This document shows, piece after piece, positions 23,192 through 29,044 of a stretch of DNA of 64,000 bases. The stretch is from NCBI RefSeq assembly GCF_009914755.1, contig NC_060931.1; one strand, given 5' to 3'. A model generated the notes under the pieces. It saw only the letters and a program-made list of their open reading frames with translations. It had not been told where the DNA came from and did not search any database. The position numbers and the translations under genes are program-made. Numbering within the stretch: position 1 is the first letter of the stretch; each line of letters opens with the position of its first letter. This DNA is from the human T2T-CHM13v2.0 reference genome, Homo sapiens.

Positions 23192-23354
23192 CAGCACTGG
23201 TTTAATGATAAGAAAATTATAAGAAATAATGAGTTAATAATAATATGCCATTATTATTATGTAATTATATTATATATATTATATCATGAGATAATATGCC
23301 AGTATTATTAACTCATTATTTCTTATAATTTTCTTATTATATCAACCGGTGCTG
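23192..23354. repeat. 163-bp AT-rich inverted repeat
   Basis: 35-bp perfect stem (23208-23242 / 23303-23337) extended by CAGCACTGGTT / AACCGGTGCTG. Confidence 0.95.
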
Positions 23355-23590
23355 GCTTTTATGATGATGATTCACAGAGATCCTTCTCACCCATCTAAGT
23401 AAGAGTTAAGTGGTATTTTTAGCACCTCTTCTCTTATGTCCTTTGTCTTACTATTCAGACAGTCAGTGGACATTGTTGGCATATAATCTTGCATCTGTTC
23501 CATTAGGGGTTAATGCTGGCTTCTCTTTACAGGTGAGTTACTTATAAACATCTTTGCTCTATTTTCCTCTTTAAGGACAATCTCTTACAG

Positions 23591-23650
23591 TAGTGGTTCT
23601 CAAACCTGAGCATGCATTGGACTTACATGGAGGCTTGTTAAAACGCAGAT
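23591..23650 (+). mobile_element. MER5A terminal ~60 bp (one end), truncated
   Basis: TAGTGGTTCTCAAACCTGAGCATGCAT...GGAGGCTTGTTAAAACGCAGAT, then an abrupt switch to unrecognised sequence. Confidence 0.8.
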
Positions 23651-23660
23651 CAGCCAGTGC

Positions 23661-24328
23661 CATGAAAATAATCAACTTGCTTAAATTGCGTTGGACTTAA
23701 GATTGCTTTTGGACTGCTCAAAGATTTCATCCTATATCCATTCAGACAGAAGAGCCGGGGCCCTTCAGGAGGTTCCAGATCAGTGCTCTGTCCTATCTTA
23801 ACTGCCCGCCAGAATGAACACAGCCCTGCTGGCAATGATGAGTAATCATATTCATCTCAGCTGTGCAGGGATGGCTCAGTATTCCTCTAAGAATTCACAA
23901 TGGTCTCTTCTGTTATCCCATCCATGAGGATGCTTCAGATCTCCAAGGTTTCATGTGGCTGGGGCTAGAGGCTGGGTGGAGAAGGAGTGCATGAAAGAAG
24001 ATAGAACCTGCAAAGTAGAGATAGGTAACTCTACTTTGTAAGGACATTGAGTAAAAGGGTCAATGCCCTCACCAAGCTGGCCTCTCAATCTTTTTGACCC
24101 CTAACTAAGAAGAGAAGACAGGGAACAGTTTTACATTTTGGCTGAGACAAGGGGCCTGGAGCTTTTCCTGGACAGACGGTGTTTGTACCCCTAAGCCACT
24201 CACAGCTCAGGTCTCCTCTGCTGAACCCAAATAATACTGAGTGAGTGACTATAAAATATCCCTTTGCCCCAAAGTGCCAGCTTTGCATTGTACCCTCATT
24301 AAAGTGTGCTCTTGTGGCCAGACTGTCA
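23661..24328 (+). repeat. Left arm of a ~660-bp inverted duplication
   Basis: Collinear with the reverse complement of 25588-26245; roughly 80% overall by eye, 95/98 in the core 23993-24090. Confidence 0.97.
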
Positions 24329-25480
24329 GTTTCAGAAGAAAACTCCTTTTAATTTTAACTAGAGTCCTAGGCATCAGAAACAGTAGAGAAAGAGGATTCA
24401 TTTATGAGTTCCTATGGCAGATTATGGGTTTTATTTGCTCCTTTACACCACTTTTCAGTCTGTCATTTTGGTAAGGTTAAGCCCAGTGTAAAACGTTCCC
24501 GTAATTATGCTCGGAAACCCTCCCAGCCTGCTGCATGCCAATAAATGCCTGGAATAACTGTCAGGCTAAATGAATCCCATTTGCACAAAATGATTATTGA
24601 AAGTTATTTTAGTTCCCTATTAAGCAGTTGCAGAACAGAGCTGTAATCAAAATGTTTATTTCAGTTAGAATTATTATGGTCCATAAAAACCTCAAGTAGA
24701 AAGTAAACTACACTTTATCAAATACAGTAAAGGCCACAGCTAGTTAAACTTCTTTTTTCACACGGCCTCTATCCTAGAGTCTGACAAGAGGCATAATGAT
24801 TAGCCTTTTCCACACTATATTAATGGATTTTATAGCCCAACTTCTGTCTAGCTAATCCAGAGTCTCTTGCCCTGGGTGAATAGAAACCTCAATTCTTTCC
24901 TGCTGGTTACCATGGCAAGCCAGCAGGCATAAGTCTCTCTGTTTCTGAGGTTACAAAGTAGGGGAGTGTCCCCTCACATTGAATGGCTGAGAAAAGGCCG
25001 TGGGGTTATAGTGCAAACAGAAGTATTTATTCATCCTACTGCCCCCCATGACTGACTGTGTACAAGCATTCCTGTTACTATAGCAGCGATTTCTTTTCCT
25101 GTGGATCTCAAAGGTAGCCAAGAAAAAATGCTTTGGCTCATTAGGCCAATGTAGTCATCCTCACCAGAAAACCGCTTCTAGGGTTTTTCTTTGGATGGGG
25201 GTAGGGGGATGGCTAATGAAAACGGCCTGTTTCTTTCCTTCCCTCTATGATCTACCCTTGAGAAGAAATCTTGGGTTTACAGTGAATGACTTTCTCGCCG
25301 TAAATCACAACAGTTTCAGTCATAACCCTCTATGCCTAAAAGTACTGTGTTGCTGTTTTTTTTTTTTTTATAAATTCCAATACCCAGTTAGAATCTCTGG
25401 AGGTTGAACCCAGGCATCAGGGGATTAAGTTCCCCAGATGATTCCAATGTGCAATTAATGATGCATACTCCATTATAGGG

Positions 25481-25564
25481 CAGTGGTCCCCAAGGTGTGG
25501 TCCCTGAACCAGCAGCATCAGCACCATCTGGGAATTTGTTAAAAACACAAATTCTTGGGCACCA
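25481..25564 (-). mobile_element. MER5A opposite terminal ~85 bp, inverted relative to 23591-23650
   Basis: CAGTGGTCCCCAAGGTGTGGTCCCTGAACCAGCAGCATCAGCACCATCTGGGAATTTGTTAAAAACACAAATTCTTGGGC. Confidence 0.82.
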
Positions 25565-25587
25565 AATACACCAAAGTGGAGAATGCA

Positions 25588-26245
25588 TGACAGTCTGCAT
25601 TAGGATACCATGCAAACCAGGTGCTTTTGAGCAAAGGGGTATTTTATAGTCACTCAGTATCATTTGGGTTCAGAGAAGGGGACCCGAGCTGTGGGTGGCT
25701 TGGCGGGGAACAAATATCTTTTGTCCATAAAAAGCTCCAGCCCCATGTCTCAGCCAAAGTATGAAACTGTTCCCTGTCTTCTCTTCTTCTTATTTAGGGG
25801 TCAAAGAGATTGAGAGGCCAGCTTGGTGGGGGCATTGACCCTTTTACTCAATGTCCTTACAAAGTAGAGTTATCTATCTCTACTTTGTAGGTTCTATCTT
25901 CTTTCCTGGAAGCCTTCTCCACTCAGCCTCTAGCTTCAACCATATGAGAACTTTGACTTCTGAAATTGGAAACTAGCATCCTCATGGATGTGGTAACAGA
26001 AGAGGCCATTGTGTGTTCTTGGAGGGACATTGAGCCATCTCTGCATAGCTGAGATGAATATGATTTTCACTGTTGCCAGCAGGGCCCTGTTCATTCTGGT
26101 GGGCCGTTAAGGCGGGGCACAGCAGTGACCTGGAACCTTCTTAAGGGTCCCAGGCTCTTCCTGAATGGAGATTGGATGGATTTCTTGAGTGGATCAAGGG
26201 CAACCTCAAGTCCAACCCAATTTTTGTAAATTTATTATTATCATG
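25588..26245 (-). repeat. Right arm of a ~660-bp inverted duplication
   Basis: Reverse complement aligns to 23661-24328. Confidence 0.97.
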
Positions 26246-27221
26246 TTGGGTGTTACTTAGCTGTGTCGAATGCTATCTTTGAAAGTTTTGAAAACTAGAA
26301 AACTAGACTGCTGAAAATAAATGTTCTTGAGTAAAAAAATGATTCACCAGGGTTTTGGTAAGGCCACAGAAATTTGCTGCAATTCCTGTGTTGGTTCATT
26401 AGACCCAGCTGCTGCTTTAGTGAACACCTCTGCTATTCCAGCTAAAAAGGAGAGGAGGACCTTTGGCAAGTATCTTGGCAACAGCTGCCACTCCCAAACT
26501 GCCTGGATGATCACATGCTCCAGGGTGATGCTTCTGTCCTAAGGCTGCTTCAGGCTCACCAGGAGTGCTTTGATTTAGTAGGATTCCACAGCTGTAGCCA
26601 TTCTACCTCTCTGGACTTTTCAGTTACCCAGGCTAACATGCATTCTTTGCTCTTTGAGCAGGTTTGGTTGGGTTTTCAGTGACTTATAAGTAAAGGCAAC
26701 TCAATTAATAAATGGACGTTTGGTTTTATTACACTAAAACCCAGGTAAGGTAATCCACTTAAGTACCTGGATTGTAAGACCAGAAAGGACACTGTTGCCT
26801 GTAATTAGCAGGTGATTCCTCTCTCCAATGGGCTCATCCAGAGCATAGGTCACTACAATCCATTTGGAACACATTGGATCCCAGCCCTGTTAATGCTCTT
26901 CTGTATGCAGTTGGTGTTATTTCACATGCCCATTCAATGAGCAATGAGTGGCTTCCTCTTGATTTACATACCTGTAGCTCCTTCTAAGGCCAGGAGTTAC
27001 CATGTGTCTCATCTGATGACTAATACAGACTGATTCAGTTAGCATCATCAGGAAAAGAAACATTTACACTAATTTGCATTATAACCTTTATTTTGCAAAG
27101 CATTGGATCTTCTCAGAAGCAAAGCCTGATACGTTAGGATCCTAGATGAAATAAATGTTCTTATTTGCCTTAACCTCCATGTAAACTAAAATAGGATCTA
27201 GTAAGTGTTGACAAAAGTGGT

Positions 27222-27578
27222 TGATATGGTTTGGCTCTGTGTCCTCACCCAATCTCATCTCAAATTGTATTCCTCATATGTGGAGGGAGGGAGGTGGTTG
27301 GCTCATGGGGATGGTTCCCCCATGCTGTTCTCGTGATAGTGAGTGAGTTCTCATGAGATCTGATGGTTTTACAAGGGGCTCTTCCCCCTTTACACACCCT
27401 CTCTCTCACCTGCTGCGATGTGAGACATGCCTGCTTACCCTTCCGCCATGATTGTAAGTTTCCTGGGGCCTCCCCATCTATGTAGAACCATAGGTGAATT
27501 AATAAATTGACCTTTTGTTTATAAATGACCCAGTCTCAGGTGGCATTCTTCATAGCAATGTGAAAACAGACTAATACA
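27222..27578 (+). mobile_element. THE1D-like solo LTR (MaLR)
   Basis: TGATATGGTTTGGCTCTGTGTCC...GACTAATACA; perfect 5-bp TSD GTGGT. Confidence 0.93.
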
Positions 27579-29044
27579 GTGGTTAAGCTACACTTCACAT
27601 AAATAATTATTTCCACAAAGCAGACGCTAAATCCTTCATCAGAGTCACCTGGAAGAGTTTGCGTGTGATGTGGCCATAGGATGTCACCACACTGTTTACT
27701 CTTAAAACTGTTGATAAGTATTTTTGCTTTTATAAGCCTGAATGCAAAATCACCTTTTGTTTGCAGAATAGCCTTTCCTTGCTGTATTGGAAGCTGGAGC
27801 ACACACTTAAAGAAACAAAAACCCAAAACCAAACTTTATTTTTTGTTTTGTTACAAAAGTCTTTAGAGGCTACCCTTTCCCGTAACTCCTCTGCAAGAGT
27901 CCCCCCACTGCTACCACCAAAGCAAAACATCAGTCATTCATATTTCAGGTAAGCACATCAAAACAGCATGTTCTCCAGGGGACTGTTTGGATAGAACATG
28001 AATTGAAGACATTGCTTTTCACCTGTAAAACAAGGCCGTGTTTTGTTTTATTCTGTTCTAATTAAAAATTGTGTCTTTCTTGAATAATTTTCTTGCCTAC
28101 CTCTCTTTGTGAACACAAATTTGACAGAACTGGGGCAGACAGAAAACAGGCATTTATTGCAATCAATATTTGTAGGAACTTGTACATCTCTTTCACAGGA
28201 AGGATGATGTCTGTAAGTTTATAGAGGAGCAGAGGTGTAGGAAAATCTACTGGGGAGTGGGGGACAGAGGAGCCTATTCTAAGCTGTGTAGAAAATCAAG
28301 TGGATAAAAATTATAGAAAGAAATTTCTAGTCTAGAACTTTTGGGCTGAGATGAATTTTGTGATTTAAAAAATTATCACGTAGCAACTCCATGCCATTTG
28401 TGGAAATCTGAACTGCTTCCAAGAGTGTAACAACTGAGCTTCCATAACTGCAAGTGTAGTGTCTAACGACTTCTTTTGTTTGCCTTCTTCTCTGTGGTTG
28501 TTTGGAGGTCCGTGGCTTCCCACTGACCTGTCTCCCATCCTGGGCATGTCCTCACCTCGGGTCAAGAGAGTGTGTTTGCTGGAAGAGGTGCTCCTGAGTG
28601 GCGGTGCCGCAGCCACAGTGATGTATCCTGTGTGGTTCTCGGTTTCACATATACTTTTTGTTTGTGTTTTCTTCTACCTCTGGAGGGGAACATAAATTGA
28701 CCCCGATCTCTTTCCCAAATGCTTCAGTGTTGGTTTTTTTTTTTTTTTCTCATGGTCCTTTGATTTTTTTCAGAAGAGAAAACTGAACGCCAATCCAATT
28801 TCAGTAGAAAATACAATTATAACATAAATGGCTACATTGTTTGAGGAGTGTTCACTGGTATCTCAGGGCCTGCCACAAGGGGATGGGCAGGTGGAATTCT
28901 GTTCCAAGCAGCATTCCTTTCTGAGTTAGGTCTTACCTTTGAGTCTCCTGCTTATTGGACAGCAAACACTTCCTTCTTGCTCGGGGCTCATCTCTGCAGG
29001 TTTTCTTATCTAGACCCCTCCTGATTCCTACCCCTGCTTGTCAC

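What the first reader, a model, noticed from the sequence alone, without database searches (positions are those of the whole stretch)
23661..26245. ~660-bp inverted repeat with strong G-U bias: candidate long dsRNA hairpin on the + strand
Seen: arms 23661-24328 and 25588-26245 align end to end across a ~1.26-kb spacer and match no repeat family I recognise. In a hand alignment I classed each transition between the arms by the pair it would make in a + strand RNA. About 45 give G-U/U-G wobble pairs and about 16 give A-C mismatches (approximate, some columns ambiguous). Strand-symmetric decay predicts ~50:50. Known: compensatory G-U pairs mark conserved RNA stems such as Drosophila hpRNAs and ADAR-edited duplexes. 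Transcription-associated A>G asymmetry pushes the same way, but modestly. Inference: the locus is or was transcribed on +, and the duplex may be under selection as an editing substrate, endo-siRNA source or intron-looping element. Counter-evidence: most LTRs in the window are on +, whereas LTRs inside genes tend to be antisense.
Basis: partly seen in the sequence, partly recalled or inferred. Interest (0 to 1): 0.85.

Follow-up and report, generated by a model that had tools for sequence, protein, structure and literature searches.

The report
Old inverted duplication from a micro-inversion
Two inverted 0.65-kb copies of otherwise unique human DNA look like the scar of an ancient small inversion, and their real excess of G-U-type differences on one strand is not good evidence for a selected RNA hairpin.

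Summary
The arms 23661-24328 and 25588-26245 align end to end: 630 aligned columns, 84.4% identity, K2P 0.18. Transitions split 45 G-U type to 17 A-C type on the + strand (binomial p = 5e-4). Six alignment schemes give 44-46 versus 16-20.

The arms are not copies of a repeat family. Whole-genome searches find only these two copies, while two control repeats returned 348 and 7515 candidates.

The flanks explain the origin. One old MITE is split, with its left half abutting the outer end of the left arm. Its right half, inverted, abuts the inner end of the right arm. That is the structure B'-R'-S-A-R-D expected from an inversion coupled to an inverted duplication, by staggered breaks or template switching.

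Regional mutation asymmetry does not explain the bias. Thirty-eight Alus within 264 kb give a G-U-type fraction of 0.52, and the ten nearest give 0.50 (Fisher p about 0.002).

Selection for RNA pairing fits poorly. Transversion mismatches (36) outnumber A-C mismatches (17), and there are 13 gap runs of up to 11 nt in the alignment, plus about 19 nt extra near the left arm's inner end. Per-site selection at primate population sizes is also implausible.

Most likely this is neutral decay, with the bias an unexplained strand-specific mutational effect, a selected extreme, or both. Transcription could not be tested.

The parts
23588..23657 (+). Left half of an old hAT-like MITE (B'). Its terminal repeat is at 23588 and its inner end abuts the left arm.
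   Evidence: It maps to the left-half region of full MITE copies in 4 of 9 loci at 66-77% identity. The alignment to 9 copies is.
23658..23660 (.). Junction triplet TGC, copy 1, lying between the MITE half and the left arm.
   Evidence: Read directly. The same triplet, reverse-complemented, lies at the other breakpoint. A 3-nt match is weak evidence.
23661..24328 (+). Left arm of the inverted duplication.
   Evidence: Its only other genomic match is the right arm.
23985..24135 (+). Low-divergence core of the arms; the partner is about 25763-25913. It contains the 112-bp uninterrupted Watson-Crick plus G-U run 23993-24104 (partner 25794-25905). It also holds a 10-bp-stem palindrome at 24011-24040 (partner 25860-25889).
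   Evidence: The core has 11 mismatches in 151 columns against 87 in 479 elsewhere (post hoc Fisher p = 0.001). Run lengths are and the palindrome is family D2.
24329..25480 (.). Spacer S, inferred to have been inverted in the same event. Its last part, about 25380-25470, looks like another MITE fragment.
   Evidence: 24329-25374 matches only itself in the genome. The MITE-like look of the 25380-25470 stretch is by eye only: it gave no BLAST hit to the 9 MITE loci at E <= 1e-3 and no listed hit.
25481..25584 (-). Right half of the same MITE (A), inverted relative to B'. Its inner end abuts the inner end of the right arm.
   Evidence: It maps at 80-90% identity to the right-half region of 9 of 9 MITE loci. 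On L008, L012 and L014 it maps to the same copy as B', on the opposite strand.
25585..25587 (.). Junction triplet GCA, the reverse complement of TGC, copy 2.
   Evidence: Read directly.
25588..26245 (-). Right arm of the inverted duplication. It is inferred to be the copy still in its ancestral context on its outer side.

Best explanation
The two arms are a local inverted duplication of ancestrally single-copy intergenic DNA, made together with a small inversion. The inferred ancestral order is B'-A'-S'-R-D, where B'A' is one intact MITE. The present order is B'-R'-S-A-R-D. The segment A'-S'-R was inverted and R (about 0.65 kb) ended up at both ends in opposite orientation.

That outcome is expected from one blunt or 3-nt-staggered break inside the MITE plus a roughly 650-nt staggered break around R. 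Two replicative template switches would give the same structure.

Since then the arms have diverged to K2P 0.18, much like neutral DNA of roughly Alu age, which suggests tens of millions of years. A central block of about 150 bp was probably re-homogenised later by arm-to-arm gene conversion.

The 45:17 G-U excess is real. I read it as a DNA-level effect: more C>T and A>G than G>A and T>C on the + strand, or a sampling extreme picked out by the first-stage scan. I do not read it as selection for pairing in a + strand RNA.

What is shown: the repeat, its uniqueness, the split and inverted MITE halves, the count, and the failure of regional asymmetry to explain it. What is inferred: the one-step mechanism, the age, gene conversion in the core, and the non-selective cause of the bias.
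For: Uniqueness. Either arm used as a BLAST-type query finds only the two arms in the 3.1-Gb genome, 2 first-look candidates each. A 26-mer from the conserved core with up to 3 mismatches hits 2 places, against 0 for the reversed control. The spacer hits only itself.

Positive controls for the same tool. The MITE fragment returned 348 candidates, 40 scored, at 79-90% identity. A repeat of about 360 bp at 27216-27584 returned 7515 candidates. No further copy exists in the window or in 264 kb by blastn or nhmmer.

Rearrangement. A maps to all 9 of 9 MITE loci. B' and A map to complementary, abutting parts of one MITE copy on opposite strands in L008, L012 and L014. Between 0 and 9 nt are unaccounted for. 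TGC sits at both junctions.

Published model. Ranz et al. 2007 (PMC1885836, passages read) report that 17 of 29 Drosophila inversions carry inverted duplications of non-repetitive sequence. The median size is 321 bp and the maximum about 1.9 kb. In 12 cases only one breakpoint is duplicated. They explain this by staggered breaks.

Against selection. There are 36 transversion mismatches against 17 A-C mismatches (p = 0.013). Ts:Tv is 62:36, or 1.7. The alignment has 13 gap runs of up to 11 nt, plus about 19 nt extra in the left arm. The - strand RNA would also form a huge duplex, -877 against -961 kcal/mol. There is no Rfam match above threshold and no Pfam-supported ORF.

From population genetics, by inference: removing half of all A-C-creating changes at hundreds of sites would need a selection coefficient near 1e-4 per site. 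That is hard to reconcile with a stem that tolerates 36 transversions.
Against: The bias is larger than any asymmetry I could measure nearby. For + strand Alu substitutions, C>T/G>A is 1.04 (bootstrap 0.83-1.30) and A>G/T>C is 1.06 (0.72-1.53). The G-U-type fraction is 0.521 (n = 975) over 264 kb and 0.504 (n = 252) in the 10 nearest Alus. The repeat differs from these at Fisher p = 0.0016-0.0017.

Of 312 inverted Alu pseudo-pairs, only 1.9% (all sites) to 4.5% (non-CpG) reach 0.726, and those have smaller n.

Relative to transversions, the A-C class looks depleted (17 against 36). The G-U class looks near neutral (45 against 36, p = 0.37). That is the direction selection would predict for transitions.

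On the + strand the core gives a 112-bp uninterrupted duplex, against 43 bp on the - strand. The core is also less diverged, which could reflect constraint rather than gene conversion.

No outgroup genome was available. The ancestral arrangement, the age and the direction of each change are therefore all inferred.
Confidence: 0.72

Rival explanations
1. There is a real, very local strand-asymmetric mutation process. The + strand of this 2.6-kb locus would have been the non-template strand close to a germline transcription start, or otherwise more often single-stranded. It would then collect extra C>T and A>G changes, and the hairpin-like bias would be a by-product.
For: Polak et al. 2010 (PMC2927911, passages read) report two patterns on the non-template strand of mammalian genes. 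A>G exceeds T>C along whole transcripts. C>T exceeds G>A only in the first 1-2 kb. Both together give the pattern seen here.

The region has a + strand G+T skew. The RefSeq table supplied with the finding lists an enhancer 4 kb upstream and mostly + strand lncRNA models nearby.

Transversion classes lean the same way. G>T plus A>C type number 12, against 5 for C>A plus T>G type (derived from the pair table; not significant).
Against: The 10 nearest Alus show none of it (0.504, n = 252). The ratio needed, about 2.6, is much larger than any asymmetry I measured nearby; the passages read give no figures. No annotated transcript covers the repeat. The spacer's composition is uninformative, because the standard deviation of G+T excess in windows of that size is 0.059.
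Confidence: 0.3
2. This is a selected + strand hairpin RNA. The locus would be transcribed on + and the duplex kept as an ADAR substrate, an endo-siRNA source or a looping element. G-U-creating changes would be tolerated and A-C-creating ones removed.
For: The split is 45:17. A-C mismatches are depleted relative to transversions. The + strand duplex is 84 kcal/mol more stable, with 47 G-U pairs. The + strand core runs 112 bp without a break.

Chen et al. 2017 (PMC5398296, abstract and passages read) argue that some expressed, structurally stable intergenic inverted duplicates are functional.
Against: Transversions and indels are not depleted. The arms are only 84% identical and the loop is 1.26 kb. 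Chen et al. set their maximum loop at 1 kb, judging longer ones less likely to fold.

The dsRNAscan preprint (PMC11838218, passages read) predicts 5.1 million human dsRNAs. Over 99% of them have phastCons below 0.5. It reports that long, highly paired dsRNAs are mostly intergenic and unedited. Folding potential is therefore common and not evidence of function.

Per-site selection of the strength needed is implausible at primate population sizes (inference). The 5' neighbours of the G sites are G in 20 of 45 cases, the opposite of the ADAR preference as I recall it.
Confidence: 0.05
3. The bias is a scar of the rearrangement itself. One version: the new + strand copy was made by template-switch synthesis on the + strand, and G-T mispairs, the commonest misincorporations, were left as wobble-type differences. 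Another version: the exposed 5' overhangs were deaminated. In the staggered-break geometry, both exposed strands end up on today's + strand.
For: The geometry, worked out from the structure and the model figure legend read, predicts the observed strand. It also predicts that both classes are raised, as seen: G/A 21 against 10, and T/C 24 against 7.
Against: The model needs about 28 extra changes in 0.65-1.3 kb, an error or damage rate of 2-4%. By my recollection this is far above what is reported near replicative breakpoints.

There is no APOBEC-type context. The 5' neighbour of the U sites is T in 10 of 45 cases, against 91 of 285 for all C. Fill-in polymerase errors would give the opposite strand bias (reasoned, not tested).
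Confidence: 0.04
4. The arms are two independent or locally transposed copies of a very low-copy mobile element, for example solo LTRs. The spacer would later have been flipped by recombination between them.
For: Both arms begin TG and end CA. The left arm carries TATAAAA at about 24250 and ATTAAA at about 24299 near its 3' end. It sits inside a MITE with a TGC triplet on both sides, like a target-site duplication.
Against: No third copy exists anywhere in the genome at the sensitivity reached, while two other repeat families were found easily. No matching duplication flanks the right arm in either arrangement. A family with only two copies lying 1.3 kb apart is very unlikely.
Confidence: 0.05

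Closest known systems
Inversion-coupled inverted duplications from staggered breaks (Ranz et al. 2007, Drosophila melanogaster group; PMC1885836)
   Same: These are inverted copies of ancestrally unique, non-repetitive sequence at the two ends of an inverted segment. Duplication at one breakpoint only is common there (12 cases). The 0.65-kb size falls within their range of 46 bp to about 1.9 kb. Their copies also decay, with a mean identity of 88%.
   Different: The inverted segment here is tiny, about 1.9 kb including the duplicated arm, whereas theirs are chromosomal inversions. This one is in a primate genome. No outgroup was available to show the ancestral order. A strand-biased substitution pattern between the copies does not appear in the passages I read.
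Replicative template-switch rearrangements and fold-back inverted duplications in humans (FoSTeS/MMBIR, dupINV-type complex variants)
   Same: Two template switches would give exactly B'-R'-S-A-R-D, with very short junction homology.
   Different: I saw these papers as search listings only (PMC2621351, PMC3907307, PMC7954356, PMC10766186). This event is ancient and fixed. The mechanism cannot be told apart from staggered breaks using the sequence alone.
Drosophila hpRNA loci, mouse oocyte hairpin endo-siRNA loci and ADAR-edited inverted-repeat dsRNAs
   Same: A long inverted repeat that would fold into a very stable hairpin if transcribed, with more G-U pairs on one strand.
   Different: There is no evidence of transcription, small RNAs or editing. 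The arms are 84% identical and interrupted by transversions and indels, and the loop is 1.26 kb. The comparison with those loci rests on recall, not on a call.
Transcription-associated mutational strand asymmetry (Polak et al. 2010, PMC2927911; Green et al. 2003, recalled)
   Same: The direction matches: more A>G and, near transcription starts, more C>T on the non-template strand. This produces a G+T excess.
   Different: The size of the effect, about 2.6-fold, is far above what I measured in nearby Alus (1.04-1.06). No transcript is annotated over the repeat.

Membership tests
Inversion-coupled inverted duplication (staggered-break or dupINV type) | The two inverted copies derive from ancestrally single-copy, non-repetitive sequence. 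| tested here: met
   Genome-wide, the arms match only each other. Control repeats were found by the same tool.
Inversion-coupled inverted duplication (staggered-break or dupINV type) | The segment between the copies is inverted relative to the outside flank. | tested here: met
   The halves of one MITE lie in opposite orientation. One abuts the left arm's outer end and the other the right arm's inner end. They map to abutting parts of the same full copy in L008, L012 and L014.
Inversion-coupled inverted duplication (staggered-break or dupINV type) | An outgroup shows the uninverted order with a single copy. | not testable with these tools
   No other primate or mammalian genome is held.
Inversion-coupled inverted duplication (staggered-break or dupINV type) | The junctions show end-joining or template-switch signatures, meaning a short duplication or microhomology. 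| tested here: inconclusive
   TGC is present at both junctions in the expected orientation. Three nucleotides can match by chance, and the MITE alignment at the break is ambiguous.
Interspersed repeat family (two copies of a Dfam family, such as solo LTRs) | Further copies exist elsewhere in the genome. | tested here: not met
   Each arm gave 2 first-look candidates. The 26-mer with up to 3 mismatches gave 2 hits. Sensitivity reaches roughly 75-80% identity. No Dfam library was available.
Interspersed repeat family (two copies of a Dfam family, such as solo LTRs) | A target-site duplication flanks each copy. | tested here: inconclusive
   For the left arm there is only a TGC triplet in the pre-inversion arrangement. 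For the right arm there is none in either arrangement.
Hairpin RNA, endo-siRNA or ADAR-substrate locus | An inverted repeat able to form a long intramolecular duplex. | tested here: met
   Cofolding the arms gives -960.8 kcal/mol and 584 pairs on the + strand. The - strand gives -877.1 kcal/mol and 549 pairs.
Hairpin RNA, endo-siRNA or ADAR-substrate locus | One transcript spans both arms, and small RNAs or A-to-I editing map to them. | not testable with these tools
   No expression, small-RNA or editing data are available here. No RefSeq transcript overlaps the repeat, according to the table supplied with the finding.
Hairpin RNA, endo-siRNA or ADAR-substrate locus | Pairing is maintained by selection, shown by depleted pair-breaking changes or by covariation. 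| tested here: inconclusive
   A-C mismatches are fewer than G-U pairs (17 against 45). Transversion mismatches are not depleted (36), and the alignment has 13 gap runs. Covariation needs orthologues.

The most novel reading that the evidence does not exclude
The locus is a primate-lineage hairpin RNA gene that does not derive from a repeat and was born from a micro-inversion. A + strand transcript would fold the two arms. Its 112-bp uninterrupted core (23993-24104 with 25794-25905) would be the working duplex, serving as a Dicer or ADAR substrate. The G-U excess would be the trace of selection, or of transcription, on that strand.
Probability: 0.05. Interest if true: 0.65.

Novelty: new member of a known kind. 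Interest (0 to 1): 0.3.

Why it matters
The finding is a clean worked example of how a long, unique inverted repeat arises in human DNA. A small inversion duplicated one breakpoint, and a split old transposon serves as the witness.

It also shows that a nominally significant G-U bias in a single inverted repeat is weak evidence for a structured RNA. The same pattern follows from any strand-asymmetric mutation, and transversions and indels give an internal check on selection.

The residual bias remains unexplained, at about 2.6-fold and p about 0.002 against local Alus. It would only become interesting if a genome-wide survey of unique inverted duplications showed it to be systematic. Examples would be a link to transcription, or to the side of the breakpoint.

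Tried and rejected
- **APOBEC or ADAR signatures at the 45 G-U sites.** The 5' neighbours of the U sites are G 9, C 13, T 10 and A 13. Those of the G sites are T 15, G 20, A 8 and C 2. Neither the TpC nor the ADAR-like preference appears (the enzyme preferences are recalled).
- **CpG decay as the cause.** The non-CpG split is still 36:14.
- **Regional skew as the cause.** The Alu-based asymmetry is only 1.04-1.06. Local Alus give 0.504.
- **Other non-Alu inverted pairs in 264 kb as a null.** Only 8 pairs were found, and most share one element at 51.2-52.4 kb. The pooled fraction is 0.43, which is not informative.
- **Spacer composition as a test of local asymmetry.** This is uninformative, because the standard deviation across windows is 0.059.
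- **Rfam.** There are two sub-threshold miRNA-family hits. One (mir-449, 23 bits against a gathering score of 60.4) straddles the left arm's outer end at 23642-23692. The other lies outside the arms.
- **ORFs and Pfam.** There are no long ORFs. The single hit, DUF4548, is sub-threshold at E = 0.041.
- **The sigma-70 promoter and terminator scan.** This is a bacterial model, it gave counts equal to the shuffles, and it is irrelevant here.
- **Polarising local substitutions with old repeats next to the inverted repeat.** I dropped this. The only sizeable neighbour looks LTR-like, so I built no consensus for it.
Full report
**1. The observation**

The inverted repeat is real and sits at the stated coordinates. 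The repeat finder reports 7 collinear inverted segments between 23757-24299 and 25599-26151, at 80-92% complementarity. A local alignment of the left region against the reverse complement of the right region runs 23661-24299 against 26245-25599. Beyond a stretch of about 19 nt found only in the left arm, the last 10 nt (24319-24328 and 25588-25597) match again.

Over left-arm positions 23661-24299 the global alignment has 630 aligned columns. Of these, 532 are identical (84.4%), 62 are transitions and 36 are transversions. The whole 23641-24345 alignment has 13 gap runs of 1-11 nt, plus an unaligned 33-nt tail in the right-arm row. The K2P distance is 0.177.

**2. The count**

I classed each transition by the pair it would make in a + strand RNA. 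There are 45 G-U type (21 with G in the left arm, 24 with G in the right) and 17 A-C type (10 and 7). The two-sided binomial p is 5.0e-4.

The result does not depend on the alignment. Five scoring schemes and MAFFT give 44-46 against 16-20, with p between 3.9e-4 and 1.9e-3. It is not a CpG effect either: the split is 36:14 outside CpG context and 9:3 within it. Under strand-symmetric mutation the expectation is exactly 50:50 whatever the composition, because both copies then evolve by the same process in their own orientation. This last point is reasoning, not a call.

As a consequence, the + strand arms cofold to -960.8 kcal/mol with 584 pairs, 47 of them G-U. The - strand arms reach -877.1 kcal/mol with 549 pairs, 16 of them G-U. 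The longest run of Watson-Crick plus G-U pairs is 112 bp on the + strand and 43 bp on the - strand.

**3. What the arms are**

They are not members of a recognisable repeat family. Either arm, searched against the whole 3.1-Gb genome, finds only the two arms, with 2 first-look candidates each time even at E <= 10. A 26-mer from the best-conserved core, allowing up to 3 mismatches, hits exactly these two places. The reversed control hits none. The spacer, 24329-25374, hits only itself.

The tool can find old repeats. A MITE fragment next to the right arm returned 348 candidates, 40 of them scored, at 79-90% identity. A repeat of about 360 bp at 27216-27584 returned 7515 candidates. blastn and nhmmer found no further copy in the window or in 264 kb around it.

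The limit on this conclusion is sensitivity. No Dfam library was available, and copies below roughly 75% identity could be missed. Arms that are 84% alike would still have to be a local duplication of one such copy.

**4. How the repeat arose**

The flanks carry the history.

- Immediately outside the left arm lies the left half of an old hAT-like MITE (23588-23657). Its terminal repeat is on the left and its inner end touches the arm.
- Immediately inside the right arm lies the right half of the same kind of MITE (25481-25584). It is inverted, and its inner end touches the arm.
- On full-length copies elsewhere (L008, L012, L014) the two pieces map to the same element. They lie on opposite strands, in abutting positions, with 0-9 nt unaccounted for.
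- The triplet TGC stands at both junctions in the orientation expected for a short stagger. This is weak evidence.

Write B' and A' for the MITE halves, S for the spacer, R for the right arm and D for the right flank. The present order, B'-R'-S-A-R-D, follows from an ancestral B'-A'-S'-R-D by inverting A'-S'-R while duplicating R.

This is the structure that Ranz et al. 2007 described for 17 of 29 Drosophila inversions and explained by staggered breaks. Their duplications had a median of 321 bp and a maximum of about 1.9 kb. Duplication at only one breakpoint occurred in 12 cases (PMC1885836, passages read).

Two replicative template switches would give the same product. Insertion of a copy into the MITE, followed by a recombinational flip of the spacer, would also fit. 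The sequence alone cannot separate these three routes.

A mobile-element origin is unlikely. It has some support: TG...CA ends, and TATAAAA and ATTAAA near the left arm's 3' end. Against it, there is no third copy in the genome and no flanking duplication at the right arm.

**5. Age and later history**

The per-lineage divergence, about 0.09, is close to the mean non-CpG divergence of the 38 local Alus from their majority sequence. That figure is about 8%, derived from the counts. It suggests tens of millions of years, but this is an inference without an outgroup.

Divergence is uneven along the arms. Positions 23985-24135 have 11 mismatches in 151 columns, against 87 in 479 elsewhere (post hoc Fisher p = 0.001). 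The simplest reading is later arm-to-arm gene conversion. Constraint on that block cannot be excluded.

**6. Regional mutation asymmetry**

It explains only a small part.

Across 264 kb (the window plus 100 kb on each side) the + strand has S_GC +0.023 and S_TA +0.038. The G+T excess falls from +0.07 to +0.08 upstream to about 0 downstream. The direction therefore agrees with the bias.

Measured substitution asymmetry is small, however. I oriented 38 Alus and compared them with their majority sequence.
- The + strand C>T/G>A ratio is 1.04 (bootstrap 0.83-1.30).
- The A>G/T>C ratio is 1.06 (0.72-1.53).
- The G-U-type fraction is 0.521 (n = 975) for all 38 Alus. It is 0.504 (n = 252) for the 10 Alus within -20 to +64 kb.
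- Treating all 312 inverted Alu pairs as pseudo-repeats gives a pooled fraction of 0.515-0.518, with a standard deviation of 0.10-0.12. Only 1.9-4.5% of pairs reach 0.726, and those have smaller n.

The repeat differs from the Alus at Fisher p = 0.0016-0.0017. Against null fractions of 0.55 and 0.58, the one-sided binomial p is 0.0034 and 0.013.

Two further checks were uninformative. The 8 other non-Alu inverted pairs in the region are dominated by one element. The spacer's composition cannot discriminate, because the window-to-window standard deviation is 0.059.

**7. Selection for an RNA stem**

The internal controls argue against it. Every transversion breaks a pair, yet there are 36 of them against 17 A-C mismatches (p = 0.013). 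G-U pairs against transversions is 45:36 (p = 0.37). Selection that removed half of the mild A-C mismatches should have removed transversions at least as well.

The ratio of total transitions to transversions is 1.7. Local Alus give 2.03 at non-CpG sites. The stem is also broken by indels, including 11 nt and about 19 nt, and the loop is 1.26 kb.

Chen et al. 2017 capped loops at 1 kb, judging longer ones less likely to fold (PMC5398296). The dsRNAscan preprint predicts 5.1 million human dsRNAs, with over 99% at phastCons below 0.5. It finds long, highly paired ones to be mostly intergenic and unedited (PMC11838218). Folding potential by itself is therefore common.

By inference, per-site selection strong enough to halve A-C-creating substitutions at hundreds of sites is implausible at primate population sizes.

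Other checks were negative. Rfam gives nothing above threshold, and there is no coding signal. The G-U sites carry no TpC or ADAR-like context.

**8. What remains open**

The bias is real for this locus and I cannot assign its cause. Four candidates remain.

- **A selected extreme.** The finding was flagged because the ratio was striking, and a scan of many windows will throw up p of about 5e-4 by chance.
- **A strictly local + strand process.** An example is the TSS-proximal pattern of Polak et al. 2010, in which both A>G and C>T are raised on the non-template strand in the first 1-2 kb of a transcript (PMC2927911).
- **A scar of the rearrangement.** The geometry predicts the right strand, but the error rate needed (2-4%) is very high.
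- **Selection on a + strand hairpin.**

I put about 0.72 on the neutral, DNA-level reading taken as a whole: inversion-coupled duplication with a non-selective bias. Chance and local mutational asymmetry share roughly equally within that figure. I put about 0.05 on a selected hairpin. Orthologous sequences and expression data, neither available here, would settle the matter.

**9. Verdict**

The functional inference is not supported. The locus is a new instance of a known kind of rearrangement product and is of modest interest.

Noticed in passing
window 23205-23242 / 23303-23340: An AT-rich hairpin lies just upstream of the left MITE half. Its 38-nt arms are 97% complementary and its loop is 60 nt (I7). 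It has only a sub-threshold Rfam hit to a miRNA precursor family, 21 bits against a gathering score of 110.
   Followed up: no
window 24011-24040 and 25860-25889: Each arm carries its own small palindrome, with a 10-bp stem and an 8-nt loop, inside the low-divergence core (D2). The bacterial-type terminator scan also picked it up.
   Followed up: partly
window 27216-27584 (+): This is a high-copy interspersed repeat of about 360 bp. It returned 7515 first-look candidates, and the 40 scored copies are 78-83% identical. Its size suggests an LTR-type element. I did not characterise it and built no consensus.
   Followed up: no
264 kb around the window (L016-L035 plus the window): The + strand G+T excess falls steadily, from +0.07 to +0.08 at -88 to -64 kb down to about 0 at +116 to +150 kb. 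Of the 38 Alus, 26 lie antisense to the + strand. Both observations fit long-term + strand transcription or a replication skew domain.
   Followed up: partly
window 25380-25470: What looks by eye like a second, partial MITE fragment lies directly beside the inverted MITE half. It follows a T-run at about 25357-25370. The stretch gave no BLAST hit to the 9 MITE loci at E <= 1e-3.
   Followed up: no
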